A stretch of 58,587 bases of DNA from Bacillota bacterium (GTDB lineage: Bacteria; Bacillota; Limnochordia; DTU087). The notes under the pieces are model-generated. The model saw only the letters and a list, made by a program, of their open reading frames with translations. It made no database searches and was not told where the DNA came from. Both the position numbers and the translations under genes were made by a program. Location: assembly GCA_012799135.1 (NCBI GenBank), contig JAAZLW010000066.1:1-58587 (forward strand), read 5' to 3'. Of the stretch, positions 16,921 to 30,153 are shown in pieces (the stretch's first letter is position 1; every line of letters begins with the position of its first letter).

Positions 16921-17047
16921 AGGATCAGAACTCTAGTATGGGGAAGATACCGAATGTGCTAAGTCCGGCACCATGATCCGGCAGTGTAACCAATTTGGGT
17001 AGCCTTAGGGTATGATTAGGATGCCCATAGCTAGGGAGGGATGCTGT

Positions 17048-18241
17048 ATGGCCTACGATTTTGATCTGGTAATGGAACGACGGGGCACAAGCTGTGTGAA
17101 ATGGGATGGTTTGATAGATAGGTATGGAGCAAAGGATCTACTGCCCTTCTGGGTGGCTGATATGGATTTTGCAGTAGCAGAGCCAATCCAAAAAGCGATC
17201 ATTGAACGCGTACAGCATCCCATCTATGGTTACACTCAAGTCGCCCCTTCGGTATTTGAGGCGATAATCAGTTGGCTGGAGAGGCGACATGGCTGGCATG
17301 TGCAGCCGGAATGGATCGACTTTACCACCGGGGTAGTTAATGCCCTAAATCTCATTATCTATACTTATACATTGCCGGGTGATAAGATCCTGGTACAGCC
17401 ACCGGTGTATGCGCCCTTTTTTAATGCGGTGCTCAATAATGGTCGCCAGGTGGTGTATAATCCCCTAGTTCGGACCGACAACAGTTACATCATGGATCTA
17501 GATGATCTGGAAAGCAAGATCGATGCCCGCACTAGGATGCTCATTTTGTGTAATCCCCATAACCCGGTGGGTAGGGTTTGGAGCAGACCAGAATTGCAGC
17601 GGCTAGCAGAGATTTGCCTAAGACACGATCTGCTCATGGTTTCCGATGAAATCCACTCTGATTTCATCTATGCAGGACACAAACACGTACCTCTGGCATC
17701 TCTCTCCTCCGAAATTGCCGAGAACACCATTACCTGTATGGCTCCCAGCAAAACCTTTAACTTAGCCGGTTTAGCTACTTCTTTTGTGGTGATCTCAAAC
17801 AGGCGATTACGAAAGCTTTTCTGCAACACACTGCAGAATGTGGGAGTAAATAATGCCCTCTTAGGGGTTACTGCCCTGGAAGCCGCTTATCGCTATGGGG
17901 AAGACTGGCTGGAAGAGCTTTTGGTTTACCTAAAAGGGAATCGGGATTTCATGCAGGAATTTCTGGAACGGCAAGTTCCCGGGATTGAGATGAGAGAACC
18001 AGAGGGCACGCATCTTGCTTGGCTCGATTGCCGGGGATTGGCAGTGGAAGAGAATAGCCTACAGGATTTCTTTATCAAGAACGCCAGAATCGTAGTCAAT
18101 GACGGCCAGTGGTTTGGCCCTAATGGCAAAGGGTTTATCAGATTCAACATTGGTTGCCCACGCCCCCTCCTACGTGAAGGTCTTTGCCGAATGGAGAGGG
18201 CGGTGAAGGAATCGTCAGAGGTCTCGACTGGGCGAGTCTAG
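17048..18241 (+). CDS. patB: MalY/PatB family PLP-dependent C-S lyase (cystathionine beta-lyase)
   Basis: KWD, WVADMDF, LCNPHNPVGRVW, SDEIH, PLP lysine in APSKTFNLAG. Confidence 0.9.
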   Translation: MAYDFDLVMERRGTSCVKWDGLIDRYGAKDLLPFWVADMDFAVAEPIQKAIIERVQHPIYGYTQVAPSVFEAIISWLERRHGWHVQPEWIDFTTGVVNALNLIIYTYTLPGDKILVQPPVYAPFFNAVLNNGRQVVYNPLVRTDNSYIMDLDDLESKIDARTRMLILCNPHNPVGRVWSRPELQRLAEICLRHDLLMVSDEIHSDFIYAGHKHVPLASLSSEIAENTITCMAPSKTFNLAGLATSFVVISNRRLRKLFCNTLQNVGVNNALLGVTALEAAYRYGEDWLEELLVYLKGNRDFMQEFLERQVPGIEMREPEGTHLAWLDCRGLAVEENSLQDFFIKNARIVVNDGQWFGPNGKGFIRFNIGCPRPLLREGLCRMERAVKESSEVSTGRV

Positions 18242-18298: not shown

Positions 18299-18326
18299 TT
18301 GACTTCGTGATGCTTTATGCTATGAT
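18299..18326 (+). promoter_or_regulatory. sigma-A promoter for the riboswitch-sulP-mrp operon
   Basis: TTGACT-N16-TATGAT with an extended -10 TG. A TATAAT follows at 18327-18332. Confidence 0.6.
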
Positions 18327-18363
18327 TATAATTGTGGCTTGCCTAAGCCCGAAAATGCACGTT

Positions 18364-18473
18364 ATCTCCGAATTCCGCATACGGAAACGGGGGACCCCTT
18401 AATTGGGGTGAATCCTGAATATCAGGTAGGGCAACTTGGGTGCCCGAACCCGTCAGCTAACCCCGTAGGAGTG
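18364..18473 (+). ncRNA. c-di-AMP riboswitch (ydaO/yuaA class)
   Basis: P1 ctcc/ggag, GAAT, hairpin ttccg/cggaa, ACGGGGGACC, GGGGTGAATC, cctga/tcagg, TAGGG...CCCGAACCCGTCAGCTAACCCCGTAGG: the ydaO consensus elements in the correct order. Confidence 0.92.
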
Positions 18474-18554
18474 GTCCAAGCGTTAGGTTTTAGCCCCGGT
18501 AGACTTTGCTAGGCTCTTTCTGATACTGGCAGCGTCTCAGCCGGACTACTTGGT

Positions 18555-18582
18555 ACCACTACTATAGACGGGGTGGTTTTTT
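18555..18582 (+). terminator. Putative riboswitch expression-platform hairpin (terminator and/or RBS sequester)
   Basis: accact/ggtggt stem covering the purine-rich RBS, then a T-run immediately before the sulP ATG. Confidence 0.45.
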
Positions 18583-20124
18583 ATGAAATCCTGGTGGGAG
18601 CGTGTGCGAGGAGAGGTAATCGGAGGAGCCACTGCGGCAGTTGTAGCTCTTCCCTTAGCTATGGCCTTTGGGATCGCTAGCGGGGCGGGAGCTGTATCTG
18701 GTTTGTATGCCTCGATTTTTGGTGGTTTGACTGCGGCGATATTTGGTGGCTGTGGTGTGCAGATCACCGGACCCACCGGCGCAATGACAGCGGTTCTAGT
18801 GATGGTTGTCAGCAAGCATGGGGTAAGCGGCATGCTATTAGCCGGAGCTTTGGCCGGCTTAATGCAGGTGATTCTCGGCCTTTTGCGGTTAGGCAAGTTT
18901 GTCAAGTTTCTTCCTCAGCCGGTAATTGCCGGTTTTACGAATGGTGTCTCCATCCTGTTTTTCATGACCGCAATAGATGATGCTTTACAGACCCCCTCGA
19001 TTACCGTGGTTACCACGCTGGTAATTCTCTTGGCATTGCGTTTCTTCAAACAGGTTCCGGAGTCACTCTTCGGGCTCGTTGCCGGCCTCGTCATGAATGA
19101 GTTGTTCATACACACCCCCCACGTGGTGGGGGATCTTCCTTTCACTATACCCCAGCCTACATTGGCACTGATGCCCTTTGGGGATATCGGTCATCTGATC
19201 AGGCCTGCGATTACGATCTGTCTTTTGGGAAGCATTTCGGCCTTGCTGTCAGCGGAGGTCACCGATGGGATGCTTGGCACCAAACATGATAGCAATCGAG
19301 AACTGATCGGGCAAGGTCTGGGAAATCTGGTTTCCTCTCTTCTAGGAGGTGTCCCCGTCTCCGGAGCCGTTGCTCGCTCAGGGGTAAATGTCCACAGTGG
19401 GGGTCGCACCCGCCTTTCCAGTATTCTCCACGCTGTCTTCCTGTTGATCATGGTCATAGCCTTGGGACCGGTGGCTAAGCGCATACCGCTGGCTTCTTTG
19501 GCTGCCATCCTGATGGTGGCTTCAGTGCGCACAGCCGACTGGAAAAGCTTAAAGCTGATGCCCCGGGCCCGGTGGAGCTATGGGGTAATCATGACTATCA
19601 CTACCATATTGACTGTGGTCCGGGACTTGACCATTGCGGTAGCAGTTGGGGTGGTCTTGGCCGCCGCTGTGGTAATGGTGGAATTAGCATCCATGCCCCG
19701 GGGCAGCGAGGTCGCTTCAAAGAAAGCCTCTTCAACTCCTGCTCACCCAGTTCATCCCGATGTTCAGGTAATGGCTTTTGATGGCCCATTGTTTTTTGTG
19801 GGGACAGAAAATCTAAGAAGCCAAATCAGGGATGCTTCCAGTAAACCGATCTTGGTCTTGGATCTCTCTAACGTGCCTACCATGGATGAAACCGGTGCCT
19901 TAGCACTTAAAGATCTAGCCGACCGACTGCAAAGGGAAGGCAAGAGCCTTTATATAGGCGGCCTCAAAGACAAGTCCTTACGGATGTTGGCTAGAATGGG
20001 TTTGGTAGGCGAGTTGAGCCGATCTCGGGTATGCAAGGGCCTGGGAGGTGCTTTACGCAGAGCTTCCGAGGAAGCAACCCTAATGGCTCAGGCTGAGTCC
20101 AAGCTATGTCCTCAGCAGGCATAG
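18583..20124 (+). CDS. SulP/SLC26 family anion transporter with C-terminal STAS domain
   Basis: VALPLAMAFGIASG, GLYASIFGG, ITGPT, SNRELIGQGLGN, ARSGVN. STAS motifs DGPLFF and VPTMDETG. Confidence 0.93.
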   Translation: MKSWWERVRGEVIGGATAAVVALPLAMAFGIASGAGAVSGLYASIFGGLTAAIFGGCGVQITGPTGAMTAVLVMVVSKHGVSGMLLAGALAGLMQVILGLLRLGKFVKFLPQPVIAGFTNGVSILFFMTAIDDALQTPSITVVTTLVILLALRFFKQVPESLFGLVAGLVMNELFIHTPHVVGDLPFTIPQPTLALMPFGDIGHLIRPAITICLLGSISALLSAEVTDGMLGTKHDSNRELIGQGLGNLVSSLLGGVPVSGAVARSGVNVHSGGRTRLSSILHAVFLLIMVIALGPVAKRIPLASLAAILMVASVRTADWKSLKLMPRARWSYGVIMTITTILTVVRDLTIAVAVGVVLAAAVVMVELASMPRGSEVASKKASSTPAHPVHPDVQVMAFDGPLFFVGTENLRSQIRDASSKPILVLDLSNVPTMDETGALALKDLADRLQREGKSLYIGGLKDKSLRMLARMGLVGELSRSRVCKGLGGALRRASEEATLMAQAESKLCPQQA

Positions 20125-20196
20125 CTCCGTGGGTAGCCTAGATGGCAATTATCAAGACCCCTATGGGGGCAGAGCATTGCAGCTAGTGATGGGGGG

Positions 20197-20781
20197 TTGA
20201 CTTTGAACAAGCGATCTTTGGTTTTATGTGCCATATTATTGGTATTTTGGCTGGTGGTCTCTGCAGAAGCAGACTTACAGCATATTTTGGTTGGGGCGCT
20301 TCTTGCCTTGGGAACCGTGTGGTTCTGGCAGGACCTTGGCCCAAGACTGCCCCGTTTGCTTTCGGCTACAGAACTGCTACTTTTGGGTCACTGTCTCGTA
20401 ACGTTGATTCGGTTTATCATTCAGTCGAATATTGCCGTGGCCAAGACTATCTTGCTATCGAGTCCACCGGTGGGACCGGTATTTGTGGTGATGCGCCCTC
20501 CCATTGAAAGTAACTGGGGGAGGGTGCTATTGGCCAATTGCATCACCATCACCCCAGGCACGGTGACCGTTGATATTGATCCTGAGACGGGCCAGTTCAT
20601 CGTGCATGCACTGACAGAAGAGGCCGCACACGGACTGTTTGATTGGCAGATCATTCAAGAAATCAGCAACTTAGAATCATGGGGACAAAGGAGGGCAAAA
20701 CATGCTGTGGCTGCTAGTAGGTCTCATGGTACTAATTCTGTTCGTACTCTTGCGGGCGATTATCGGCCCGACGGTGATTGA
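20197..20781 (+). CDS. mnhE: Mrp/Mnh Na+/H+ antiporter subunit E
   Basis: SNIAVA, LLANCITITPGT, FIVHAL. Confidence 0.88.
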   Translation: MTLNKRSLVLCAILLVFWLVVSAEADLQHILVGALLALGTVWFWQDLGPRLPRLLSATELLLLGHCLVTLIRFIIQSNIAVAKTILLSSPPVGPVFVVMRPPIESNWGRVLLANCITITPGTVTVDIDPETGQFIVHALTEEAAHGLFDWQIIQEISNLESWGQRRAKHAVAASRSHGTNSVRTLAGDYRPDGD

Positions 20782-21013
20782 TCGCTTGCTTTCCATCAAT
20801 GCGATTAGCAGCAAGGTCAGCATGATTATCTTGTTGATGGCATTCATGAGAGGCGATTATGGATTCATCGATGTAGCCTTTGTCTTTGTGTTATGTGGAT
20901 TTGTGGGAGGGCTTTGGATACTGCGGGTGCTAACCCCTGGTGATTGGCAGCTGAGGTTACCGGGGTTGGGCGGATTTGAAGGTGAGGGAGAGGAAGCGGT
21001 TTCTCATGATTAA
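20702..21013 (+). CDS. mnhF: Mrp/Mnh antiporter subunit F
   Basis: RAIIGPTVIDR, FIDVA, three TM segments. GGAGG RBS. Confidence 0.85.
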   Translation: MLWLLVGLMVLILFVLLRAIIGPTVIDRLLSINAISSKVSMIILLMAFMRGDYGFIDVAFVFVLCGFVGGLWILRVLTPGDWQLRLPGLGGFEGEGEEAVSHD

Positions 21014-21317
21014 GTTGTTAGCTAATGTCTGCTTTATCGGGTCTTTTTGCGCGTTTGCCCTGGGTACTTTGGGGCTGTTTCGCTTGCCGGATCCATATAC
21101 CCGCCTGCATGGGGTCGGTATGGGAGATACCCTAGGAGTGGGGTTGGGAGGCCTAGGACTCTTTCTGCTCAGCCCCAGTTGGGCTCTGCGGATCAAATTA
21201 CTGGTTATCCTGGCTCTATTTTGGACGATCAACCCCGCTATGACCCACCTAGTAGCTAAAGCGGGCCTAATACATGGGGTAGACCCGGTAGAGGGTACTA
21301 AACTGATCAAGGGGTGA
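21006..21317 (+). CDS. mnhG: Mrp/Mnh antiporter subunit G
   Basis: GLFRLPDPYTRLHG...DTLG, NPAMTHLVAKA. Confidence 0.88.
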   Translation: MIKLLANVCFIGSFCAFALGTLGLFRLPDPYTRLHGVGMGDTLGVGLGGLGLFLLSPSWALRIKLLVILALFWTINPAMTHLVAKAGLIHGVDPVEGTKLIKG

Positions 21318-21321
21318 GCAG

Positions 21322-21573
21322 ATGGAGTTTACGGCTGTCGATTATGGAACTATGGTTATGCTCTTGATCCTAGTGGCGGCTTCTCTGGCCATGTATTTTA
21401 TCAAGGATCTGATACATGCAGTGATTGTGTATGGAGCCTATACTCTGATCATGGCTTTAGTCTGGCTACAGATGAACACCCCTGATATTGCTATTACTGA
21501 GGCTGCGGCGGGGATTGGGATGACAGTTTTGATGATGGTGGTTATTTCTCGCACCAGCCGAAGGGAGGAGTAA
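21322..21573 (+). CDS. Mrp subunit B-related protein (DUF4040/MbhD-like)
   Basis: TPDIAITEAAAG motif, three TM segments. Confidence 0.82.
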   Translation: MEFTAVDYGTMVMLLILVAASLAMYFIKDLIHAVIVYGAYTLIMALVWLQMNTPDIAITEAAAGIGMTVLMMVVISRTSRREE

Positions 21574-21872
21574 TGGTGAGGCTGCGGACTTTCGTAATTT
21601 TGCTCATTGCCTTATTAGCCGGTTATGTAGTCTTAATTGCCGTGGCCGAGTTGCCTCCCTACGGGATGCCTGGCAATCCCGCCCATAACGAGGTAACCCA
21701 ACGCTACATTGAAAACGCTCTGGAAGATACGGGAGTTCTCAATATGGTTACAGCCATTGTTTTGGATTATCGGGCCTATGATACTATGTTCGAAACCATC
21801 GTGTTGTTTACGGCAGTCCTAGCGGTGATTATCACCCTGAAGACAACAGAGGAAAAGGGTGGTGGGCAGTGA
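21573..21872 (+). CDS. Mrp subunit B-related protein (MbhE-like)
   Basis: NMVTAIVLDYRAYDTMFE motif. Confidence 0.85.
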   Translation: MVRLRTFVILLIALLAGYVVLIAVAELPPYGMPGNPAHNEVTQRYIENALEDTGVLNMVTAIVLDYRAYDTMFETIVLFTAVLAVIITLKTTEEKGGGQ

Positions 21873-22294
21873 GGGATTTTGTCCTAAAACGGGTTGCGGC
21901 ATTGCTCTTGCCTTTTGTCCAAATGTATGGACTATATGTGATTTTCCATGGCCATGTCTCCCCAGGGGGCTCCTTTGCCGGTGGTATCGTAGTGGGTCTA
22001 GCCTTCATCGCCTTTGCCACCATCTATGGTGTGCCAAGAGGTCGGGCAAAGCTACCGGAGAAGGTTACCACTCTGGCTGAGAGCTATGGGACCCTTTGGT
22101 ATGGACTCATGGGCATGGTAGGTATCATCAAGGGCGCTCCCTTTTTAGCCAATAAGTTGGCGGGAATTGATCTGGGAGTACCGGGAGCACTATCTTCTGG
22201 GGGGCTGGTTTCCCTTATCGGTCTCGGTGTTGGCATAAGGGTGGCCTCAACAATGGTTACTCTGTTTTTTACCATGATGGAGGAAGAGTCGTGA
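21869..22294 (+). CDS. mnhB: Mrp/Mnh antiporter subunit B
   Basis: HGHVSPGGSFAGG motif, GVGIRV. Confidence 0.88.
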   Translation: MRDFVLKRVAALLLPFVQMYGLYVIFHGHVSPGGSFAGGIVVGLAFIAFATIYGVPRGRAKLPEKVTTLAESYGTLWYGLMGMVGIIKGAPFLANKLAGIDLGVPGALSSGGLVSLIGLGVGIRVASTMVTLFFTMMEEES

Positions 22295-22674
22295 GCATAT
22301 TGCTAGAGAAATTAATGGTCAACTACCCATACTTCGCCGCGGTGATCTTGTTTATTATCGGTGCTCTCACGGTGCTGACCCGTTCTAACCTATTTAAGAA
22401 ACTGATCGGTATCAACATCATGGAAAGCGCCATTTTCCTCATGTTTATCGCAGCAGGCAACATCCGGGGTGGGGCTGTACCCATACTGGATCAGGCGAAC
22501 CCGAAGACAGCTTATATTAACCCAGTGCCTTCAGCTTTGATGTTGACGGGCATAGTGGTCAGTGTCAGTGTGACTGCTTTTGCTTTAGCATTGATTATCA
22601 GGTTATATCAATCTTACGGTACCACCGATTCCCGCCGGATAGCAGAGATGAAAAGTGAGGTGACAGATGGATGA
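22291..22674 (+). CDS. mnhC: Mrp/Mnh antiporter subunit C
   Basis: NLFKKLIG, NPVPSALMLTGIVVS. Confidence 0.9.
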   Translation: MSILLEKLMVNYPYFAAVILFIIGALTVLTRSNLFKKLIGINIMESAIFLMFIAAGNIRGGAVPILDQANPKTAYINPVPSALMLTGIVVSVSVTAFALALIIRLYQSYGTTDSRRIAEMKSEVTDG

Positions 22675-24170
22675 TGGCGACCATTACGGCTAATTTACCG
22701 GTCTTTGTTGTCATCGCACCTCTGTTTGTCGCCTTCATCTTGCCTACCTTCGCCCATCGCCTACGGCTGGTGGAAGGACTGGTAATGGCCGTCGAGGCTT
22801 TGGGGCTCTTGGGGGCGGGATATTTGGCTTCCCTTATCCTTTTGCAGAAAGGCATTCCCGTTGTCTATAGCATGGGAGGTTGGTCAGCCCCGTGGGGTAT
22901 AGAATTGATGGTGGGCAATTTGAGTGCCTTCTTTCTCCTAGTGGTGGCCGGTGTCACTTTGCCGGTGGCCCTTTTCTCCATCGACAGCATGAGTCACGAA
23001 GTCGGTGGTCCCCAGCGAATCAGCCGGTTTTATGTACTTTACCTGCTGCTCAGTGGGGCCCTGGCCGGTATGGCTGTCACCAATGACCTTTTCAATGTCT
23101 TTGTCCTGGTAGAAGTAGCTACCCTAAGCTGCTGTGGTCTGGTAAGTGCCCGCAATCATCCCCGGGCAGCGGAAGCGGCCTTCAATTATTTGATCCTGGC
23201 AACACTGGGATCTGCCCTCATCTTGGGTGGTATTGGTTTTTTATATATTGTTACGGGACATTTGAATATGGGGTTTGCCTCTCAAGAACTAAGCTGTGTC
23301 TGGCAGGACTACTCGCACGTGGTATGGATAGCTGCCAGTTTCCTACTAGTGGGTTTTGGTGTAAAATCTGCTCTTTTCCCATTGCATGTTTGGCTACCGG
23401 ATGCTCACTCCACAGCTCCCTCCCCAGCCAGTGCTATCCTGTCTGGGTTGGCTATCAAAGGGTACTTAATATGCCTAATCAAGGTGCTGTACGTCGTTTT
23501 TGGCAATACTCTGATGCAGGAATACGCCATGCATCGAATATTGGTATTGCTGGGAATGATCGCGATTATTGCCGGGTCGCTTTTGGCTTTGGCACAAGAT
23601 GAACTCAAACGCAGATTGGCCTTTTCCACTGTTGCCCAGGTGGGATATGTATTCCTGGGGTTAGGACTGGTCAACACGAAGGGCCTTACCGGTACACTGT
23701 TTCACATGGCCAGCCATGCTGTAATCAAGTCCAGCCTATTCTTGGCGGCGGGAGCCATGATCAGTGCCACGGGCAAAAGTAGGATTAGTGAAATGGCTGG
23801 TATTGGTAGGAAAATGCCGGTCACTATGGCGGTCTTTACCATCAGTAGTCTGGGCTTGGTGGGTATACCGTTGTTTTCCGGGTTCATTGGCAAATGGTAT
23901 CTCTTGCTCGGCAGTTTAGGAGCGGGGAACTCGCTGGCGGCGGTGGTGCTGATCGCAGGAAGTGTACTATGCGCAGCTTACCTTTTCCCGATTATCCGCA
24001 TCGCCTATTTTGAACCGGTATCTGTGGAGGAGGATTGGCAGGACCCCGGCATGCCACAAAAGATTGCCCTGATCTTGCTGGCAGCTGGGGTGGTGATCTT
24101 GGGGATAGTACCAGGACCTTTCCTGGAGCTGGCCGGTAGGGCGGCGGCGGATTTACTGGTAATCCAATAG
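22671..24170 (+). CDS. mnhD: Mrp antiporter subunit D (NuoN-like proton-conducting subunit), copy 1
   Basis: GGWSAPWGIEL, DLFNVFVLVE, GVKSALFPLHVWLPDAH, SGLAIK, GFIGKW. Confidence 0.9.
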   Translation: MMATITANLPVFVVIAPLFVAFILPTFAHRLRLVEGLVMAVEALGLLGAGYLASLILLQKGIPVVYSMGGWSAPWGIELMVGNLSAFFLLVVAGVTLPVALFSIDSMSHEVGGPQRISRFYVLYLLLSGALAGMAVTNDLFNVFVLVEVATLSCCGLVSARNHPRAAEAAFNYLILATLGSALILGGIGFLYIVTGHLNMGFASQELSCVWQDYSHVVWIAASFLLVGFGVKSALFPLHVWLPDAHSTAPSPASAILSGLAIKGYLICLIKVLYVVFGNTLMQEYAMHRILVLLGMIAIIAGSLLALAQDELKRRLAFSTVAQVGYVFLGLGLVNTKGLTGTLFHMASHAVIKSSLFLAAGAMISATGKSRISEMAGIGRKMPVTMAVFTISSLGLVGIPLFSGFIGKWYLLLGSLGAGNSLAAVVLIAGSVLCAAYLFPIIRIAYFEPVSVEEDWQDPGMPQKIALILLAAGVVILGIVPGPFLELAGRAAADLLVIQ

Positions 24171-24192
24171 AGACGGGAGGAGGGTTTAGCAG

Positions 24193-25638
24193 ATGATTGA
24201 TTTAATTCTGGCTTTACTGAGTGGAGCGATCGGCGGGCTATGTGTAGCATTGATGCCCCGGGCAGGCAGCCGTTTGCGCAACACCATTACACTGCTTTTC
24301 ACTGTGGCCGGCACGATCTTCAGCTGGCGGGTGGCCGGCAGGGTATTGGGTGGCCAGAGTATTCGGATAGCTGGTGAGTTCGGGGGGCTGACCTGGAGCT
24401 TACACCCAGACCCGTTGGGGGCAGTCTTTGGTTTGATTGTTTCCACTCTGTGGATCTTTGCTGCTGTCTATTCCTATGGGTATATGGCAGGAGAGCAAAA
24501 ACAGCGGACTTATTACACCTATTTTCTTCTGGCTTTTAGTGTGGCTTTAGGGGTAGCCTTTTCCGGTAATCTCTTGGCTCTCTATCTGTTCTATGAAATA
24601 CTCACCTTTGTCACCTATCCTTTGGTCATCCATGAGCGTAATACAGAAGCCATGCAGGCCGGTGCCAAGTATATTATCTACAGTCTCTCAGGTGCAGGGG
24701 CGATTCTTATCGCTATAGTAATCACCTATGGCTGGACAGGTAATTTGGATTTCGCTGGTGGGCCACTGTTAGCCAATGGTGGCCTGAGGCCGGGCTTAGG
24801 TTGGCTCTTGGCCTTGTATGTTGCCGGATTTGGTGTAAAGGCGGCCATAATGCCGCTCCATCGCTGGTTGCCGGCGGCGATGGTAGCACCTACTCCCATC
24901 AGTGCGTTACTCCATGCAGTCGCAGTAGTCTACTCTGGGGTTTATGGGATATTGCGGGTAGTGTATTCAGTCTTCGGGCATGAACTGATGCGGGAGCTGG
25001 ATCTCAGTCATGTCCTCCCCTGGGTAGCGGCTTTTACCATCTTGGTAGGGGTGATCATTGCCACACAACAGGATGTTCTCAAGCGGCGCTTGGCCTATCA
25101 TACGATTAGCCAGCTTTCTTATATTCTCTTGGGAGCCTTCACATTGCATCCGTGGGGATTGGCTGGGGCTGTGTTCCATATGATCAGTTACTCCACCCTG
25201 AAGGTTACGCTTTTCTTTGGTGCAGGGATTATTGCTAAAGCGACCGGTAAGGTCAACGTCAGTGAAATGGGTGGGGTGGGGTGGCGGTTGCCCTGGACCT
25301 TGGCTGCCTTTGGTGTCGCTAGTTTGGGAATGATCGGAATGCTGCCTCTTAATACCTTTTGGAGTAAGTATTATTTGATGAAGGGCAGTGTAGCCGGGGG
25401 AAGGTGGCCACTGGCCGTGGTGCTGATCGTTAGTGGTGTTATCAATGCTTTTTGCTTCATTCCCACTGTGGTGACTGCCTTCACTGGAGGGAAAGGTCAG
25501 CTCACTGCGGAAAAGGGGGGCCAGGTCAGTCTCATGTTGGCTCCTACTGTAATGCTGGCTGGGATTGCGGTCTTGATCGGTCTTTGGCCGGGATTGGTTT
25601 GGCCAGGAGTTGAAGCTGTAGTCAATTGGTTTTTCTAG
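24193..25638 (+). CDS. Mrp subunit D/A-like proton-conducting membrane subunit, copy 2
   Basis: LFYEIL, GVKAAIMPLHRWLPAAMVAPTPISALLHA (MrpA/NuoL-type His), FWSKY. Confidence 0.88.
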   Translation: MIDLILALLSGAIGGLCVALMPRAGSRLRNTITLLFTVAGTIFSWRVAGRVLGGQSIRIAGEFGGLTWSLHPDPLGAVFGLIVSTLWIFAAVYSYGYMAGEQKQRTYYTYFLLAFSVALGVAFSGNLLALYLFYEILTFVTYPLVIHERNTEAMQAGAKYIIYSLSGAGAILIAIVITYGWTGNLDFAGGPLLANGGLRPGLGWLLALYVAGFGVKAAIMPLHRWLPAAMVAPTPISALLHAVAVVYSGVYGILRVVYSVFGHELMRELDLSHVLPWVAAFTILVGVIIATQQDVLKRRLAYHTISQLSYILLGAFTLHPWGLAGAVFHMISYSTLKVTLFFGAGIIAKATGKVNVSEMGGVGWRLPWTLAAFGVASLGMIGMLPLNTFWSKYYLMKGSVAGGRWPLAVVLIVSGVINAFCFIPTVVTAFTGGKGQLTAEKGGQVSLMLAPTVMLAGIAVLIGLWPGLVWPGVEAVVNWFF

Positions 25639-25655
25639 TGTAAGGAGGTTAGTCT

Positions 25656-27590
25656 ATGCTGCTCATAGTCCTTCCCGCTATTCCTTTAGTGGGAGTAATA
25701 GCCCTTCTTGGTATGCGGGGCAAGGATATCAATATGCCTTTGATCATTAGTTCAATTATTCTGCTCTTGGGGAGCTGGGGGCTAAAGGACGTGTTTTGGG
25801 GCGGGCCGTTGACCTACAGACTCTCGCTTTCCGGGCCATATGCTCCTACTTTTCGGGCTGATGCTTTGTCTGCTATTTTTGTGCTTCTGGCTGCGTTTCT
25901 ATGGTGGGTAGTCTCCATATATGCACCGGAGTATATGCAACACGAAGGCAGAGTACGCAGTTTCTATGTTTGTACGCTCTTGACCCTATCTGCGGTCTTG
26001 GGGGTCTTTCTCGCCGGCGATCTTTTCACTATGTTGCTTTTCTTCGAGCTGATGACTATAGCTTCTTTCTTCTGGGTGATCCACCGGATGAATAAAGAAG
26101 CGATTCGAGCCGGATACTTTTATCTGTTCTTTAGCATTGTCGGCGGTCTTTTCTTGGCTCTGGGGATTGTGCTGATGGGAGCAGCCACCGGTGATCTGCT
26201 TACCATCGGTACCGGCCCCGTAGATCCGTTGCAGCCACGCATGTTGGCGTGGGCTTTGGGCCTATTTGTCGCTGGGTTTGGGATCAAGGCCGGCATGGTG
26301 CCTTTGCATCTTTGGCTGCCTCATGCCCACTCTGTGGCTCCGACTCCAGCTAGTGCCCTCTTGTCTGGGCTCTTAATCAAGGTAGGAGCTTACGGACTGA
26401 TCCGCACGGGGGAGCTGGTCGGTTGGGGTATAGAGTGGGGAGGCATGGCAACTTGGTTAGGGCCTGCTTTGACTGTTCTGGGTACCTGTACCATGCTCGT
26501 GGGGGTGAGTGCCGCACTTCTGCAAAGTGATGCCAAACGGCTGCTAGCCTATCATAGTGTAAGTCAGATGGGTTATATTATCTTGGGGCTGGGTGTAGGT
26601 CTGCTCTTGGGGAAAGCGGGAGGACTGGGCCTGATGGGAGCGATCTATCATATTGTCAACCATGCCCTCTTTAAGGCAGCCCTTTTCTTGGGTGTTGGTG
26701 TAATCTATGTTCACACCCAAGAGGCCAACCTGTATAACCTTGGGGGTTTGTGGCGGCGCTTTCCGGTTACGGCCATACTGATGTTCCTGGCGGTTTTGGG
26801 TATTACTGGCGCACCAGGCCTGAATGGGTATGCCAGCAAGACTTTGCTTCATCATGCAGTCAGTGCCGTCGCTGAAGGCGGTCCACCTTGGATGGTCTGG
26901 GTGGAGCGACTGTTTTTGGTAGTTGGAGTTGGTACTGCTGCTTCCTTTACTAAGCTCTATTATCTTATATTCCTGGGACAACCCACAGAGATTGAGATTG
27001 CAGAAGGGCAGTCTCATCGCCTCCAGCTAGCCATGGCATTACTGGCCGTGGTGATGGTGGGAATTGGGCTCAAGCCAGGTCTTTTCCCTCAGGCCTTGGC
27101 GATACCGGCAGCTGAGGCATTGGGGATGGGGATGGCTCATGATGCGATGGTGGGCTTTTCCTTCTGGGATGCCGGTGATGTAGTAGGCATGCTAATCACT
27201 TTGGGGCTCGGTATGGCGGTGTGCTGGGCTGGCCTAAGAACCGGAGCATTCCATTGGCAGCCTCCGCTTTGGCTTACCTTAGAGGGCCTAGTGAGGATAC
27301 TTGGTCATGGTCTTTTAGCGGTCATTAGGGTTGGAGAAAGGTCTTACCGCTGGGTAGCTGCCCGTTTCTCAGAGCTAGGCAGGACCCTAGGGTCCCGCCT
27401 AGCCTCAGCCTGTCACAGGCTGGATCATGCCCGGGGTGGGACTATTGGTGGTATTACCTTGTCCGGAATCAGTGCTGATGCCTTCTTGTTGATGTTTACC
27501 TTAGCAGCCCTGATCGTCTGGTATGTTGCCTCACCTAGTCTGCGGTGGCCCTTATCTTTACCCACAGGGATAGGAGTACCGCTCCGGTAG
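25656..27590 (+). CDS. Mrp subunit D/HyfB/NuoL-like proton-conducting subunit with C-terminal extension, copy 3
   Basis: FFELM, GIKAGMVPLHLWLPHAH, SGLLIK, GYASK, then a long basic amphipathic segment and a final TM. Confidence 0.88.
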   Translation: MLLIVLPAIPLVGVIALLGMRGKDINMPLIISSIILLLGSWGLKDVFWGGPLTYRLSLSGPYAPTFRADALSAIFVLLAAFLWWVVSIYAPEYMQHEGRVRSFYVCTLLTLSAVLGVFLAGDLFTMLLFFELMTIASFFWVIHRMNKEAIRAGYFYLFFSIVGGLFLALGIVLMGAATGDLLTIGTGPVDPLQPRMLAWALGLFVAGFGIKAGMVPLHLWLPHAHSVAPTPASALLSGLLIKVGAYGLIRTGELVGWGIEWGGMATWLGPALTVLGTCTMLVGVSAALLQSDAKRLLAYHSVSQMGYIILGLGVGLLLGKAGGLGLMGAIYHIVNHALFKAALFLGVGVIYVHTQEANLYNLGGLWRRFPVTAILMFLAVLGITGAPGLNGYASKTLLHHAVSAVAEGGPPWMVWVERLFLVVGVGTAASFTKLYYLIFLGQPTEIEIAEGQSHRLQLAMALLAVVMVGIGLKPGLFPQALAIPAAEALGMGMAHDAMVGFSFWDAGDVVGMLITLGLGMAVCWAGLRTGAFHWQPPLWLTLEGLVRILGHGLLAVIRVGERSYRWVAARFSELGRTLGSRLASACHRLDHARGGTIGGITLSGISADAFLLMFTLAALIVWYVASPSLRWPLSLPTGIGVPLR

Positions 27591-29756
27591 GCAGTGGCAG
27601 ATCCCTTGAGAACTAGGCCGGAAGCGGAGCGCTCTGGTCGAGTTAAGGACAGCCAAGAGTGCCACGCCGACATCGGCGAAAACCGCCTGCCAAAGGGTGG
27701 CTACTCCGGCAATTCCGAGAGCAATGAACAGGGCTTTGACGGCAAAGGCCAAAATGATATTTTGGATGATGATCTGCCGGGTGTGGCGGGCGATCCGGAT
27801 GGATTCAGCTACCTTACCCGGCCGATCCTCCATGATTACTACATCAGCGGCCTCAATGGCAGCATCAGAGCCGAGGCCTCCCATGGCAATTCCTACATCG
27901 GCCCGAGTGAGTACCGGAGCATCGTTAATTCCGTCTCCGACAAAGGCTAGCTTGCCTTGGCGCCCATCTTCATGAGCCAGGAGATTCTCTAGCTGAGTCA
28001 CTTTCTCATCGGGAAGCAACTCAGCATGGATCTCATCGATCCCTACCTCAAGGCCCACCTGCTCAGCAGTGCCCTTAGCATCTCCCGTTAGCATAACCGT
28101 CTTTCCTACCCCCAGATGGTATAGATCATGGATCGCTGTGGTAGCATCAGGTTTGATCTGATCAGCAATAGTAATGGTCCCGGCGAATTCTCCGTCTTTG
28201 GCCACATATACAGTGGTAACCCCATTGCCAGAGTCTGGAAAGAAGCTGACACCGCTACTGGCCAGTAACTTGGCGTTTCCCACCAGGATTTCAGCTCCAT
28301 TGATTCTCGCCCGGACGCCTTTCCCTGCGATCTCTTCATATTCCCCCTCACCGATGGTAGGTGACTCTGCCAAAGAGTTGGCCTTAAGGATAGAAAGGGC
28401 AATAGGGTGAGTGGAGTGAGCCTCGGCCTTTGCCGCTAAGTCTAGTACGGTCTCCGAAGTAAAGCCATTAGCCGGTGTAACCTGTTGGACTTGGAAAACG
28501 CCCTCGGTAAGGGTGCCAGTTTTGTCAAAAACCACTGTATCTATATCAACCAATGCATCCAAGTAGTTGGCGCCTTTGATCAGGATGCCCCGGCGGGAAG
28601 CACCACCAATCCCGCCAAAGTATCCTAGTGGTATGGAGATAACTAAAGCACAGGGGCAAGAGATCACTAAGAGCACTAGTGCTCTATGGACCCATTCCCC
28701 TAGACTGGCACCGGGAATGAGTATTGGTGGCAGTATTGCTACCAAGACCGCGCCGATTACGACTACCGGTGTATAGTACCGGGCGAGTTTAGTAATAAGG
28801 TGCTCTGTCGGTGCCTTACGGCTAGCGGCATTTTCCACTAGTTCTAAGATACGGGCCAGGGAAGTCTCCCCATATGCTTTTGTGACTCTAACTTGCAGCA
28901 ATCCAGAGTGATTGACCATGCCTGCCAGTACAGCTTCACCTGGGCATACTCGCTGTGGTACAGACTCTCCGGTGAGAGCCGAAGTATCGACAAAGGAATT
29001 GCCCTCGATGATCTCGCCATCGAGTGGTATCCGTTCTCCCGGTCTTACTATGATCATGCTGCCCACAGGTACTTGAGCAGGATCAACGGTTTCTATCCCA
29101 TCTCCAGTCTTTAGATTAGCAAAATCCGGCCGGATCTCCAGAAGTGATTGAATGGAGCTGCGGGAGCGAGATACAGCCATGTCTTGTAGCAGTTCGCCTA
29201 TATAGTAGAAGAGCATTACACCCACAGCTTCCGGCAAGTTGCCAATGGCAAACGCGCCTACAGTGGCAATGGTCATTAGGAAATTCTCATCGAAGATCTG
29301 GCCCTGGGTAGCATTGCGGATAGCTGCAGTAATAACCCTTCCACCCACCAGGAAGTAGGCGGTAAGGAAAACGATATATTGACCCCAGCCTCTACCCATC
29401 GTCTCTAGCTGGGACTTATATATGAGTCCAGTACCGAATAATATACCGGCAATGATCAGCGGCCAAAGTCTGACACTTTGCCGATGGCTCTCTCGGACCT
29501 CAGCCTCGGTGGTTGAGCGCTGTCCTTGCCCCTTGGGGTGAATCATCACACCTGGCTCTAATGCATCGATAATAGCTTGAGCCTGGGATACCTTGGCTGC
29601 ATCCATCATCAATGTGCTAGTGGCAAAGCTGATGGTGGCCTTAGCATCTAGGTCCTTCTGCAGTCGGGCTTCTATCTTGCTGGCACAATTGGCGCAATCC
29701 AGGCCACTTAAGGTGTAAGTCTCTGTTGCAGCTTCTATTAGCTCCGATGCGGGCAT
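27558..29756 (-). CDS. cadA: Heavy-metal (Cd/Zn/Pb) translocating P1B-type ATPase
   Basis: HMA GLDCANC, TGES, SCPCALV, DKTGTLT, HP, GDGINDAP, FADVG. Confidence 0.93.
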   Translation of the reverse strand: MPASELIEAATETYTLSGLDCANCASKIEARLQKDLDAKATISFATSTLMMDAAKVSQAQAIIDALEPGVMIHPKGQGQRSTTEAEVRESHRQSVRLWPLIIAGILFGTGLIYKSQLETMGRGWGQYIVFLTAYFLVGGRVITAAIRNATQGQIFDENFLMTIATVGAFAIGNLPEAVGVMLFYYIGELLQDMAVSRSRSSIQSLLEIRPDFANLKTGDGIETVDPAQVPVGSMIIVRPGERIPLDGEIIEGNSFVDTSALTGESVPQRVCPGEAVLAGMVNHSGLLQVRVTKAYGETSLARILELVENAASRKAPTEHLITKLARYYTPVVVIGAVLVAILPPILIPGASLGEWVHRALVLLVISCPCALVISIPLGYFGGIGGASRRGILIKGANYLDALVDIDTVVFDKTGTLTEGVFQVQQVTPANGFTSETVLDLAAKAEAHSTHPIALSILKANSLAESPTIGEGEYEEIAGKGVRARINGAEILVGNAKLLASSGVSFFPDSGNGVTTVYVAKDGEFAGTITIADQIKPDATTAIHDLYHLGVGKTVMLTGDAKGTAEQVGLEVGIDEIHAELLPDEKVTQLENLLAHEDGRQGKLAFVGDGINDAPVLTRADVGIAMGGLGSDAAIEAADVVIMEDRPGKVAESIRIARHTRQIIIQNIILAFAVKALFIALGIAGVATLWQAVFADVGVALLAVLNSTRALRFRPSSQGICHCLPERYSYPCG

Positions 29757-29766
29757 GATCTTTCCC

Positions 29767-30132
29767 CTACCTTTCTTCAGCAAAGTGTTCTTGAGCCTGA
29801 TGAATGAGGTTTACTATATGATCGTCATCCAATGAGTAAAAAACTTGCTTGCCTTCTCGGTGGTATCTAACCAGACGCATGGCCTTCAGCAGCCGCAGAT
29901 GGTGAGATATTGCCGGTAATGACATCTCCAAGATCTCAGCCAAATCGCAGACACACAGTTCCTCTTCAGAAAGAAGGTAGATGATTTTGGTCCTGGTTTC
30001 ATCACCGAGGACCTTGAAAAGCTCGGATAGACCGGCTACCTCCAGCACTTTCTCCCGTAATCTGTCCATCTCCCGGCAGTTGGGGCTATATTGATCACAT
30101 ATATCCTGGCAGGAACGGTCACTCTCAGTCAT
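29767..30132 (-). CDS. cadC: ArsR/SmtB family metal-responsive repressor (CadC-like)
   Basis: LFKVLGDETR, ELCVCDLA, ISHHLRLL, YSLDDDH, N-terminal Cys residues. Confidence 0.9.
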   Translation of the reverse strand: MTESDRSCQDICDQYSPNCREMDRLREKVLEVAGLSELFKVLGDETRTKIIYLLSEEELCVCDLAEILEMSLPAISHHLRLLKAMRLVRYHREGKQVFYSLDDDHIVNLIHQAQEHFAEER

Positions 30133-30153
30133 ATGCCTCACCTCTACGTTTAG

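What the first reader, a model, noticed from the sequence alone, without database searches (positions are those of the whole stretch)
18299..27590. c-di-AMP riboswitch heading a SulP-STAS plus mrpEFG-BBB-C-DDD operon
Seen: a sigma-A promoter, a near-consensus ydaO/yuaA aptamer (18364-18473), an RBS-covering hairpin with a T-run, then sulP and ten tightly spaced or overlapping Mrp-type genes with no recognisable terminator. Established: c-di-AMP riboswitches are typically OFF switches and are best known upstream of K+ uptake (kimA, ktrAB, kdp), osmolyte transport and cell-wall hydrolase genes. Mrp complexes are Na+(K+)/H+ antiporters, and SulP proteins move bicarbonate, sulfate or dicarboxylates. 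Inference: this is a coupled cation/anion homeostasis module induced when c-di-AMP is low, for example Mrp cation flux energising or charge-balancing SulP anion uptake, or a K+-handling Mrp variant. I do not know of this combination being characterised.
Basis: partly seen in the sequence, partly recalled or inferred. Interest (0 to 1): 0.8.

Follow-up and report, generated by a model that had tools for sequence, protein, structure and literature searches.

The report
c-di-AMP riboswitch controlling SulP–Mrp operon
A well-known RNA sensor of the bacterial messenger c-di-AMP heads an eleven-gene operon for an anion transporter and a multi-subunit sodium/proton antiporter; dozens of related anaerobes share the arrangement, which ties this messenger to sodium handling.

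Summary
Rfam's c-di-AMP model hits 18356-18487 at 94.8 bits (cut-off 38). It is followed by sulP-STAS and ten close-packed Mrp-type genes.

The linkage is conserved. 15 of 16 close sulP loci carry the riboswitch, and all 16 keep the same gene order. A survey of 71 loci with this Mrp type found:
- 26 with riboswitch, sulP and Mrp
- 18 with riboswitch and Mrp but no sulP
- 14 with no riboswitch detected
- 13 cut off by a contig end

The main target is therefore Mrp, and sulP is an accessory.

Homologous leaders have a canonical terminator right after the aptamer, which indicates an OFF switch. In this window its U-tract has decayed.

New finding: every Mrp-linked SulP has Ser where H+- or Na+-coupled SLC26 symporters carry Glu or Asp (BicA D258). 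Stand-alone relatives keep Glu. One Ser-type sulP sits instead in front of an F-ATPase operon whose c subunit has the Na+ ligand set.

Best reading: a module induced at low c-di-AMP that extrudes sodium and moves an anion without cation coupling. The substrate and the direction of transport are unknown. This is a new variant of known kinds.

The parts
18299..18326 (+). Sigma-70/sigma-A type promoter, TTGACT-16 nt-TATGAT, with a TG extension of the -10 box
   Evidence: matches 10 of 12 positions, TG present. A TTGAC(T/A) box is seen in 15 of 16 homologous upstream stretches.
18356..18487 (+). c-di-AMP (ydaO/yuaA) riboswitch aptamer. It includes the pseudoknot between the P7 loop ACUUGG and CCAAG at 18476-18480.
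   Evidence: RF00379 at 94.8 bits, E 3.9e-21, full model. The pseudoknot pairs in 98.9% of cells across 15 leaders. L186 shows a compensatory variant, CUUGAG/CUCAAG.
18479..18521 (+). Decayed remnant of the family's intrinsic terminator. The stem is AGC(g)UUAG...CUAGGCU, followed by CUUUCU instead of a U-run.
   Evidence: Alignment A1. Homologs read CCU(A/G)CGCUUUUUU here, in 12 of 15 leaders. Window, L006 and L010 lack the U-run. Fold energy -12.6 kcal/mol.
18549..18562 (+). Conserved pre-SD element CUUGGUACCACUAC, complementary to the aptamer's 3' tail GUGGUCCAAG (18471-18480)
   Evidence: minimum-free-energy folds; 87.2% of cells paired, 2 pairs with compensatory change, 4 of 500 shuffles as high.
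18558..18582 (+). Weak hairpin ACUACU/GGUGGU covering part of the SD (GGGGUGG, 18570-18576), followed by a T-run.
   Evidence: It is not conserved: 11 of the 14 other aligned leaders lack the window's final G (GGGGUGA, GGAGUGA or GAGGUGA).
18583..20124 (+). sulP: an SLC26/SulP anion transporter with a STAS domain. Ser219 stands where cation-coupled family members have Glu or Asp.
   Evidence: Pfam Sulfate_transp 6.6e-62 and STAS 7.8e-14. Best solved relatives: SLC26Dg 5DA0 at 8.6e-58 and BicA 6KI1 at 2e-51. Residue table.
20197..20781 (+). mrpE/mnhE (MbhA-like)
   Evidence: PF01899, 1.8e-27
20702..21013 (+). mrpF (MbhB-like). The ATG at 20702 is preceded by GGAGGG.
   Evidence: PF04066, 3.1e-08; sequence
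20976..21317 (+). mrpG/mnhG (MbhC-like)
   Evidence: PF03334, 7.6e-19
21322..21573 (+). MbhD-like subunit, corresponding to part of the C-terminal region of MrpA
   Evidence: PF13244, 1.7e-14. NCBIfam matches to MrpA positions about 603-690.
21573..21872 (+). MbhE-like subunit, corresponding to part of the C-terminal region of MrpA
   Evidence: PF20501, 3.6e-09. NCBIfam matches to MrpA positions about 690-796.
21869..22294 (+). mrpB/mnhB (MbhF-like)
   Evidence: PF04039, 1.1e-22
22291..22674 (+). mrpC/mnhC (NuoK-like, MbhG-like)
   Evidence: PF00420, 8.8e-23
22671..24170 (+). Antiporter-like subunit D1 (MrpD/NuoN-like)
   Evidence: PF00361, 1.1e-56
24193..25638 (+). Antiporter-like subunit D2 (MrpD-like)
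   Evidence: PF00361, 4.6e-51
25656..27590 (+). Antiporter-like subunit D3, 644 aa. Its closest solved relative is MbhH.
   Evidence: PF00361, 2.3e-54. PDB matches: 6CFW_H 5.8e-62, 6U8Y_X 1.4e-43, MrpD 7QRU_D 9.8e-42.

Best explanation
A genuine c-di-AMP riboswitch, transcribed from its own promoter, controls one 11-gene transcript. The transcript encodes sulP plus a stand-alone, Mbh-type Mrp cation/proton antiporter.

The Mrp has MrpE, F and G, an MrpA split into MbhD-like, MbhE-like and a 644-aa MbhH-like pump subunit, MrpB, MrpC and two MrpD-like subunits. That makes three antiporter-like subunits in all.

As in its relatives, the switch is an OFF switch. Bound c-di-AMP locks the aptamer's 3' strand (CGUAGG) and the pseudoknot. 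The strand CCU(A/G)CGC is then free to pair with AAGCG and form a terminator. When c-di-AMP is low, which published work links to K+ limitation and osmotic upshift, CGUAGG pairs with CCUACG and the operon is read through.

The product is inferred to be a sodium-extrusion machine in an organism whose ATP synthase also looks Na+-coupled.

The SulP partner belongs to a derived clade that replaced the TM8 Glu of H+/Na+-coupled SLC26 symporters by Ser. I infer that it moves an anion without its own cation coupling, as a uniporter, channel or exchanger. It would work beside the Na+ pump, for example for net salt extrusion or pH and charge compensation, rather than as a Na+- or H+-driven importer.

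Shown here: the aptamer, the gene content, the conservation, the terminator in relatives and the Ser/Glu split. Inferred: the OFF logic in this particular copy, Na+ as the Mrp substrate, and the SulP substrate, direction and uncoupled mode.
For: Aptamer: RF00379 at 94.8 bits. There are five such aptamers in the genome and a DAC-domain cyclase gene at G000:C268.

Conservation in close relatives:
- 15 of 16 close sulP loci have the aptamer just upstream. The 16th is cut 107 nt upstream.
- All 16 keep the order sulP-E-F-G-MbhD-MbhE-B-C-D-D-D as far as their contigs reach.

Conservation across the class (95 genomes):
- 24 of 28 SulP matches with at least 44% identity have a listed riboswitch hit directly upstream.
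- Riboswitch-to-Mrp without sulP occurs in G053, G054 and G027.

MrpC-seeded survey of 71 loci:
- 26 have riboswitch, sulP and Mrp.
- 18 have riboswitch and Mrp.
- 14 have at least 2 kb upstream but no riboswitch found; 10 of these have MrpE identity of 26-44%.
- 13 are cut.

A second Mrp architecture (fused MrpA/B of 944 aa, then C and D) also follows a riboswitch in G012.

OFF platform:
- The terminator with a U-run is present in 12 of 15 sulP leaders. All 17 Mrp-only leaders have a T-run at that place; 14 of 17 read CGC followed by at least 5 T.
- Terminator pairs form in 91.1% of cells and antiterminator pairs in 93.3%, against 20-77% when the partner is slid.
- Published c-di-AMP riboswitches act by termination, and c-di-AMP falls under K+ limitation (PMC6488665, abstract and passages; PMC9337991, passages).

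SulP:
- BicA's Na+ ligands D258/T262/T302 (bioRxiv 2022.06.08.495363, passage) align to S219/S223/V263.
- Ser is found in 17 of 17 Mrp-linked SulPs and Glu in 8 of 8 stand-alone class relatives. Ser is found in all 27 Mrp-adjacent SulPs.
- Of 77 further SulP loci, 73 have Glu, 1 has Lys and 3 have Ser. Two of those three Ser loci show their neighbours (Mrp in L063, the F-ATPase operon in L035); the third, L036, is cut at the contig end.
[quoted passage not shown] It is present in SLC26Dg and BicA and absent from mammalian exchangers and channels (PMC8298490, passages).

Na+ context:
- The Ser-type sulP of L035 overlaps the start of a complete F-ATPase operon.
- That operon's c subunit, and the window genome's own c subunit (G000:C104), carry Gln, Glu, Thr and Tyr at the Na+-site positions. 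The ligand list comes from PMC2359735, passages.
- This is the only Mrp-like cluster in the genome.
Against: - In this window the terminator's 3' strand is mutated (GCUAGGCUCUUUCU). Two canonical pairs are broken and there is no U-run. This copy may terminate poorly or be regulated differently. L006 and L010 share the defect.
- Covariation for the terminator and antiterminator is not significant: 18-22 of 500 shuffles and 264 of 500 shuffles respectively reach the observed values.
- RNAalifold and the minimum-free-energy fold pair the aptamer strand ACCCCGU with the SD region ACGGGGU. Taken alone, that would suggest the opposite polarity at the level of translation.
- Ser and Thr hydroxyls can ligate Na+, so Glu-to-Ser might mean a change from H+ to Na+ coupling rather than loss of coupling.
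- The Glu-to-Ser change arose once. The Ser clade is a single branch with SH-aLRT 100, so the correlation with pump linkage is one evolutionary event.
- Nothing here shows which cation this Mrp moves or which anion SulP moves.
- sulP has been lost repeatedly, and there is an 82-aa remnant in L031. Mrp therefore does not need it.
- Riboswitches in the 71-locus survey were called with an nhmmer profile built from 15 aptamers, not with Infernal.
Confidence: 0.55

Rival explanations
1. Sodium cycle of the BicA type. The Ser-type SulP is a Na+-coupled anion importer (bicarbonate or a carboxylate). The co-encoded Mrp, or in L035 the Na+ F-ATPase, pumps the co-transported Na+ back out and maintains the sodium-motive force that drives uptake.
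For: - The Ser-type SulP is always next to a Na+-linked machine where its neighbours are visible: 27 of 27 Mrp-adjacent cases and L035 with an F-ATPase whose c subunit has the Na+ ligand set.
- Cyanobacteria co-express the SulP protein BicA with Na+/H+ antiporters. There is a bicA-nhaS3 operon in Microcystis (PMC4419860, passages). The mnh operon is in the NdhR regulon with sbtA and bicA and is proposed to make the Na+ gradient (PMC4390856 and PMC10096703, passages).
- Cyanobacterial SulPs are the nearest relatives outside the clade, at 37-41% identity.
Against: - BicA's Na+ ligands D258, T262 and T302 are S, S and V here.
- The NCBIfam BicA equivalog scores 263 bits against a cut-off of 880.
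- None of the 15 cyanobacterial-clade SulP loci fetched had an Mrp-like gene within the flanks by tblastn.
- The cyanobacterial Mnh role is itself called tentative in PMC4390856.
Confidence: 0.22
2. The riboswitch in this particular genome is a decaying relic. With the terminator's U-tract gone, the operon is read through whatever the c-di-AMP level, or is controlled only weakly at translation through the pre-SD element.
For: - Window, L006 and L010 are the 3 of 15 leaders without the U-run.
- Two canonical terminator and antiterminator pairs are broken in the window.
- The window-specific hairpin over the SD has only 6 pairs, 3 of them G-U.
Against: - The aptamer itself is intact at 94.8 bits, with all conserved positions.
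- A shifted 7-pair stem remains, with 5 U in the next 9 bases.
- The long-range helix between the aptamer tail and the pre-SD element is conserved, with 87.2% of cells paired and 2 compensatory pairs. It could give translational control.
Confidence: 0.15
3. The Mrp complex handles K+ rather than Na+ (a Pha-like K+/H+ antiporter). The operon would then belong to the classical K+ branch of the c-di-AMP regulon.
For: - The known riboswitch targets are K+ uptake systems such as kdp (PMC6488665).
- Some NCBIfam Mrp models that match subunits F and D are named K+/H+.
Against: - Those matches are far below their cut-offs.
- An OFF switch would induce a K+ exporter exactly when K+ is scarce, which makes little sense.
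- The genomic context points to Na+.
Confidence: 0.06
4. SulP docks physically on the Mrp membrane arm through its STAS domain and forms one anion-cation supercomplex.
For: Tight operon linkage (72-nt gap) in 26 surveyed loci.
Against: - The same SulP clade is linked to an F-ATPase instead in L035.
- 18 riboswitch-Mrp operons lack sulP.
- G054 and G055, of one genus, differ in having it.
- No binding test was run.
Confidence: 0.04

Closest known systems
c-di-AMP (ydaO/yuaA) riboswitches upstream of kimA, ktrAB and kdpFABC in Bacillus
   Same: Same aptamer family (RF00379). The same terminator-based OFF platform is seen in the relatives, as described for kdp in B. thuringiensis (PMC6488665).
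   Different: The controlled genes are an Mrp antiporter and a SulP anion transporter, not K+ importers. This copy's terminator has lost its U-run.
Mrp (CPA3) Na+/H+ antiporters of Bacillus pseudofirmus, Anoxybacillus and Dietzia (PDB 7QRU, 6Z16, 7D3U)
   Same: All seven subunit types are present. The cluster stands alone with no redox module next to it.
   Different: MrpA is split into three genes. The gene order is EFG-A'-B-C-D-D-A''. There are three antiporter-like subunits instead of two. The largest subunit is closer to MbhH (5.8e-62) than to MrpA (4e-35).
Membrane arm of Pyrococcus furiosus Mbh/Mbs (PDB 6CFW, 6U8Y)
   Same: The gene order mbhA-H matches E, F, G, MbhD, MbhE, B, C, H. Pfam MbhD and MbhE domains are found. 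The best structural-sequence match is MbhH.
   Different: No hydrogenase or sulfane-reductase module follows. The next gene is a convergent P-type ATPase. There are two extra antiporter-like subunits.
Cyanobacterial BicA with NhaS3/Mnh
   Same: A SulP-family transporter co-expressed with Na+/H+ antiporters (PMC4419860, PMC4390856, PMC10096703).
   Different: A different regulator (the protein NdhR/CcmR rather than a riboswitch). BicA has Asp258 as a Na+ ligand whereas this protein has Ser. The BicA equivalog cut-off is not met.
SLC26Dg (Deinococcus geothermalis fumarate/H+ symporter, PDB 5DA0)
   Same: The closest solved relative, at 8.6e-58 over residues 2-473, with the same TM and STAS build.
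   Different: SLC26Dg and the stand-alone relatives in this class have Glu in TM8. The Mrp-linked clade has Ser.
Paired Na+/H+ and Cl-/HCO3- exchange in mammalian epithelia (NHE3 with SLC26A3/A6). Recalled from memory, not from any call.
   Same: A cation/proton exchanger working beside an SLC26 member that lacks the coupling carboxylate. That lack in mammalian isoforms is stated in PMC8298490.
   Different: The proteins on the cation side are unrelated and the direction of salt movement differs. This is an analogy only.

Membership tests
Rfam RF00379 c-di-AMP riboswitch | Covariance-model score at or above the gathering score, over the full model | tested here: met
   94.8 bits against 38, model positions 1-134
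Rfam RF00379 c-di-AMP riboswitch | Pseudoknot between a hairpin loop and the 3' tail | tested here: met
   ACUUGG pairs with CCAAG in 98.9% of cells. L186 carries a compensatory CUUGAG/CUCAAG. That the family has this pseudoknot is partly recalled; the complementarity of the Rfam consensus loop and tail can be seen.
Rfam RF00379 c-di-AMP riboswitch | Binds c-di-AMP | not testable with these tools
   Needs in-line probing or calorimetry
Transcriptional OFF riboswitch | Intrinsic terminator (stem plus U-run) behind the aptamer, with an alternative antiterminator using aptamer sequence | tested here: inconclusive
   Met in 12 of 15 sulP leaders and in the 17 Mrp-only leaders. In the window the U-run is CUCUUUCU and two pairs are broken.
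Mrp / CPA3 multisubunit cation:proton antiporter | Subunits A to G all encoded together | tested here: met
   Pfam MNHE, MrpF_PhaF, PhaG_MnhG, MbhD, MbhE, MnhB, Oxidored_q2 and three Proton_antipo_M
Mrp / CPA3 multisubunit cation:proton antiporter | Na+(K+)/H+ antiport activity | not testable with these tools
   Needs vesicle assays or complementation
Mbh/Mbx/Mbs respiratory complexes | A NiFe-hydrogenase-like peripheral module encoded with the membrane arm | tested here: not met
   The operon ends at 27590 against a convergent P-type ATPase gene. G054 and G027 operons also end at D3. The rest of the genome was not searched for such a module.
SLC26/SulP | Sulfate_transp membrane domain plus a C-terminal STAS domain | tested here: met
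   PF00916 6.6e-62 and PF01740 7.8e-14
BicA bicarbonate transporter (NCBIfam NF050096) | Equivalog cut-off, and the Na+ ligands Asp258/Thr262/Thr302 | tested here: not met
   263 bits against a cut-off of 880. The ligand positions read Ser/Ser/Val.
DauA C4-dicarboxylate transporter (NCBIfam NF008660) | Equivalog cut-off | tested here: not met
   306 bits against a cut-off of 614
Cation-coupled SLC26 symporters (SULTR, SLC26Dg, BicA) | Acidic residue in TM8 at the position of AtSULTR4;1 Glu347 | tested here: not met
   Ser219 in the window and in 17 of 17 Mrp-linked orthologs. Glu in 8 of 8 stand-alone relatives. The rule comes from PMC8298490.

The most novel reading that the evidence does not exclude
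A clade of bacterial SLC26 transporters gave up its own H+ coupling (TM8 Glu to Ser) when it was recruited into operons of electrogenic Na+ machines: Mrp in most lineages and a Na+ F-ATPase in one.

Together they would form a c-di-AMP-gated salt-handling module. The pump moves Na+ while the uncoupled SulP carries the accompanying anion (Cl-, HCO3- or a carboxylate). This would be a bacterial counterpart of paired Na+/H+ and anion exchange in animal epithelia.

It would make Na+ and anion extrusion, not only K+ and osmolyte uptake, a direct output of low c-di-AMP.
Probability: 0.3. Interest if true: 0.75.

Novelty: new variant of a known kind. Interest (0 to 1): 0.58.

Why it matters
c-di-AMP is known as the master regulator of K+ and compatible-solute uptake. 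Its link to sodium is indirect in the literature I could see. The only explicit case was a tandem Na+/c-di-AMP riboswitch (PMC9337991).

Here an Mrp antiporter turns out to be a frequent direct riboswitch target. It is controlled in 44 of the 58 surveyed loci whose upstream region is visible, and a second Mrp architecture is controlled as well.

The operon also offers a natural experiment on coupling in the SLC26 family. Sister proteins differ at the one TM8 carboxylate thought to mediate cation coupling, and that difference tracks whether the gene sits next to a Na+ pump. Both points can be tested directly with standard assays in non-pathogenic hosts.

Tried and rejected
- Expression data. 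One run search gave three runs, all kept as contigs. Laying them showed only short low-depth pieces. A 232-nt contig spans 20000-20231 across the sulP/mnhE gap, but that run is probably DNA. A 236-nt identical piece at 18596-18831 sits in a digester RNA library. Neither shows transcription, an RNA end or co-transcription.
- Papers not held: Woodger 2007, Block 2010 and Nelson 2013. Their gene-association lists and supplements may already name mrp or sulP downstream of ydaO RNAs. My statement that this is not in print rests only on the searches.
- The claim that bicA lies in one operon with mnh genes in Synechococcus PCC 7002 is recalled. It was not confirmed by PMC3468840.
- The bioRxiv 536078 and PMC5165239 hits for 'bicA mnh' were word-start matches to 'bicarbonate' and had no bearing.
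- I considered the RNAalifold pairing of ACCCCGU with the SD as the main switch. I set it aside because the terminator and antiterminator explain the conserved platform, and because that pairing shows no two-sided compensatory change (4 G-U variants at one pair, and changes at another position that leave a wobble or a mismatch).
- Genes downstream of stand-alone sulP give no common partner: IclR, an acetyl-CoA-synthetase-like gene, or nothing.
- Complex prediction, structure prediction, and the large protein searches were not run. The partner swap in L035 and the repeated loss of sulP made a specific SulP-Mrp contact unlikely.
- I did not check the conserved Lys and Glu of the three antiporter-like subunits.

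Full report
**1. What is in the window**

The Rfam scan of the whole window gives one hit. It is the c-di-AMP riboswitch RF00379 at 18356-18487 on the + strand, at 94.8 bits against a gathering score of 38, covering the full model.

A promoter-like site lies 30 nt upstream. It reads TTGACT-16 nt-TATGAT with a TG extension, at 18299-18326. The scan's total is no higher than in shuffled sequence. However, a TTGAC(T/A) box stands at the same place in 15 of the 16 homologous upstream stretches printed.

Downstream genes by Pfam:
- a SulP/SLC26 transporter with a STAS domain (18583-20124)
- MnhE, MrpF and MnhG
- an MbhD-like and an MbhE-like protein
- MnhB and MnhC
- three antiporter-like Proton_antipo_M proteins, the last of 644 aa

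The genes overlap or lie at most 72 nt apart. The cluster ends at 27590 against a convergent P-type ATPase gene. The sulP-mnhE gap holds a strong SD and a small hairpin without a U-run. It holds no promoter-like or terminator-like site.

NCBIfam shows that the MbhD-like and MbhE-like proteins match the C-terminal part of MrpA. The 644-aa subunit is closest to MbhH of the Pyrococcus Mbh complex (6CFW_H, 5.8e-62), ahead of MrpD and MrpA.

The complex is therefore a stand-alone, Mbh-type Mrp with a split MrpA and three pump subunits. It is the only such cluster in the 3.1-Mb genome. The genome also encodes a diadenylate-cyclase domain and four more c-di-AMP aptamers.

**2. Is the linkage conserved?**

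A search with the SulP protein found 16 close loci (67-91% identity) in Bacillota genomes assembled from metagenomes. Their labels include Hydrogenispora, 'Clostridiaceae' and Halanaerobiales.
- 15 of the 16 have RF00379 just upstream of sulP. The 16th is cut 107 nt upstream.
- All 16 continue with the same ten genes in the same order as far as the contig reaches.

Across the 95 genomes of the window's class:
- 89 have the riboswitch.
- 24 of 28 SulP matches with at least 44% identity have a listed riboswitch hit directly upstream. The other four are one cut contig, one genome whose hits were partly unlisted, and two at 45-46% identity.
- Three genomes have the riboswitch directly before mnhE with no sulP. 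One of them, G027, carries a separate riboswitch-sulP unit on another contig.
- G017 keeps an 82-aa sulP remnant between the riboswitch and mnhE.

A wider survey seeded with an MrpC alignment gave 71 new loci. Several lie on the same contigs as earlier loci.
- 26 have riboswitch, sulP and Mrp.
- 18 have riboswitch and Mrp.
- 14 have at least 2 kb of upstream sequence and no riboswitch found. Ten of these are distant, with MrpE identity of 26-44%.
- 13 are cut.

In this survey the riboswitch was called with an nhmmer profile of 15 aptamers, not with Infernal.

In G012 a riboswitch with its terminator also precedes a different Mrp build: a fused MrpA/B of 944 aa, then C and D.

Other riboswitch copies in the class precede ABC importers with a family-5 binding protein, or an ABC ATPase, as does the copy on the window genome's contig C242.

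Mrp is thus a regular member of the c-di-AMP riboswitch regulon in this group. sulP is a frequent accessory that can be lost.

**3. The expression platform**

The aptamer's 3' tail CCAAG (18476-18480) is complementary to the invariant P7 loop ACUUGG. It is paired in 98.9% of cells, and L186 carries a compensatory CUUGAG/CUCAAG.

Behind the aptamer, 12 of 15 aligned sulP leaders have AAGCG...CCU(A/G)CGC followed by at least 5 U. All 17 Mrp-only leaders examined have a T-run at the same distance. In 14 of the 17 it directly follows CGC (L115, which has only a partial aptamer hit, was left out).

The strand CCU(A/G)CG can pair instead with the aptamer's CGUAGG. Terminator pairs form in 91.1% of cells and antiterminator pairs in 93.3%, against 20-77% with slid partners. 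There is too little variation for significant covariation.

This is the classical OFF design described for the kdp riboswitch of B. thuringiensis, where c-di-AMP falls under K+ limitation (PMC6488665, abstract and passages).

In the window itself the 3' strand reads GCUAGGCUCUUUCU. Two canonical pairs are broken, a shifted 7-pair stem remains, and the U-run is gone. L006 and L010 share the missing U-run.

It has three G-U pairs, and it needs a G that 11 of the other 14 aligned leaders lack (L017 keeps it).

A conserved element CUUGGUACCACUAC (18549-18562) can pair with the aptamer tail. It is paired in 87.2% of cells, with 2 compensatory pairs, and 4 of 500 shuffles reach that value. It may add translational control, but that is inference.

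So the family is an OFF switch. Whether this particular copy still responds is open.

**4. The SulP protein**

Its best solved relatives are the fumarate/H+ symporter SLC26Dg (8.6e-58) and BicA (2e-51). It misses the NCBIfam equivalog cut-offs for DauA (306 against 614) and BicA (263 against 880).

In BicA, Na+ is held by Asp258, Thr262 and Thr302 (bioRxiv 2022.06.08.495363, passage). In the HMMER alignment these positions are Ser219, Ser223 and Val263 here, and SLC26Dg has Glu at the first.

PMC8298490 (abstract and passages) makes four relevant points:
- SLC26Dg and BicA have Glu or Asp at the same position.
- Human isoforms lack it, except SLC26A11.
- The authors relate this to symport as opposed to exchange or channel function.

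Counts at this position:
- 17 of 17 Mrp-linked SulPs have Ser, and 8 of 8 stand-alone relatives in the class have Glu.
- All 27 Mrp-adjacent SulPs in the MrpC survey have Ser.
- Of 77 further SulP loci reached with an alignment, 73 have Glu, 1 has Lys and 3 have Ser.

Only 7 positions separate the two groups cleanly: 57, 126, 130, 219, 227, 266 and 337.

A tree was built from 96 of 102 rows. The 6 dropped rows had short or interrupted matches. It puts the 18 Ser-type rows on one branch (SH-aLRT 100), inside the class's Glu-type SulPs. The change therefore happened once.

**5. A telling exception**

Of the three Ser-type loci found, L063 has Mrp genes downstream and L036 is cut.

In L035 the riboswitch and its terminator precede sulP, whose stop overlaps the start of a complete F-type ATPase operon with subunits a, c, b, delta-alpha, gamma, beta and epsilon.

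Its c subunit reads ...MGQAIG...FIETAIIY. The c subunit of the window genome (G000:C104) reads ...GIGQG...AVAETTGIYS. Both carry Gln32, Glu65, Ser/Thr66 and Tyr70 of the Na+-binding c ring of Ilyobacter tartaricus, as listed in PMC2359735 (passages).

Wherever its neighbours can be seen, the Ser-type SulP therefore travels with machines that move Na+. The host's bioenergetics look Na+-based.

**6. Most likely function**

When c-di-AMP is low, the leader is read through. Published work ties low c-di-AMP to K+ shortage and osmotic upshift. The cell then makes a Na+-extruding Mrp together with an anion transporter that has lost its own cation coupling.

I rate the regulatory and structural part as very likely (about 0.9). 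I rate the whole physiological reading at about 0.55.

The main rival, at 0.22, is a BicA-like Na+/anion symporter whose Na+ is recycled by the pump. Cyanobacteria offer a precedent: the bicA-nhaS3 operon, and the mnh operon in the NdhR regulon. Against it stand the missing Asp and Thr ligands. Ser hydroxyls could still bind Na+.

Other readings rank lower. A decayed switch in this copy is at 0.15, a K+-specific Mrp at 0.06, and a physical SulP-Mrp complex at 0.04.

**7. Novelty**

Each component belongs to a known family. What I did not find in print is threefold:
- Mrp and SulP as c-di-AMP riboswitch targets
- the fused operon
- the Glu-to-Ser clade tied to Na+ pumps

I checked three searches at the level of listings and a few passages. 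The key early riboswitch papers and all supplements were unavailable and may list such gene associations.

I class the finding as a new variant of a known kind, of moderate to good interest.

Noticed in passing
L035:8381-16418: [quoted passage not shown] Its c subunit carries the Na+ ligand set.
   Followed up: partly
G000:C104:7680-9716 (window's own genome): The genome's F-ATPase c subunit reads GIGQG...AVAETTGIYS, the Gln/Glu/Thr/Tyr pattern of Na+-binding c rings. This suggests Na+-coupled ATP synthesis or hydrolysis in this organism.
   Followed up: partly
L186:1147-4389 (G012:C1), minus strand: A c-di-AMP riboswitch with a terminator precedes a different Mrp build: a fused MrpA/B protein of 944 aa, followed by MrpC-like and MrpD-like genes.
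   Followed up: partly
L001 (G000:C242:538-671), L183, L184, L185, L188, L189, L190: The highest-scoring c-di-AMP aptamers in this class (about 97-110 bits) precede ABC importers with a family-5 (Opp/Dpp-type) solute-binding protein. In L187 the aptamer precedes an ABC ATPase.
   Followed up: partly
L006 and L014 (one genome, G021): One related genome carries two paralogous riboswitch-sulP-mrp operons, with SulP 91% and 74% identical to the window's.
   Followed up: no
L031:12123-12368 (G017:C101): An 82-aa remnant of sulP lies between the riboswitch and mnhE. D2- and D3-like genes were not found after D1 in the fetched stretch.
   Followed up: no
window 27558-30165, minus strand: Convergent with the operon's end lie a heavy-metal P-type ATPase (E1-E2_ATPase, HMA domain) and an ArsR-family regulator. 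Its 3' end overlaps the D3 gene by 33 nt.
   Followed up: no
window 15577-18241, plus strand: Upstream neighbours are a histone-deacetylase-family protein and a class I/II aminotransferase. They seem unrelated to the operon.
   Followed up: no
L005:1501-1800 (G000:C303:3800-3926): The weakest of the genome's five aptamers (61 bits) is followed only by a 52-aa ORF with faint zinc-ribbon matches.
   Followed up: no
L029:4736-6808, minus strand (G085:C9): A stand-alone riboswitch-controlled Glu-type sulP is followed by an acetyl-CoA-synthetase-like gene. This is a possible hint at a carboxylate substrate, seen in one locus only.
   Followed up: no
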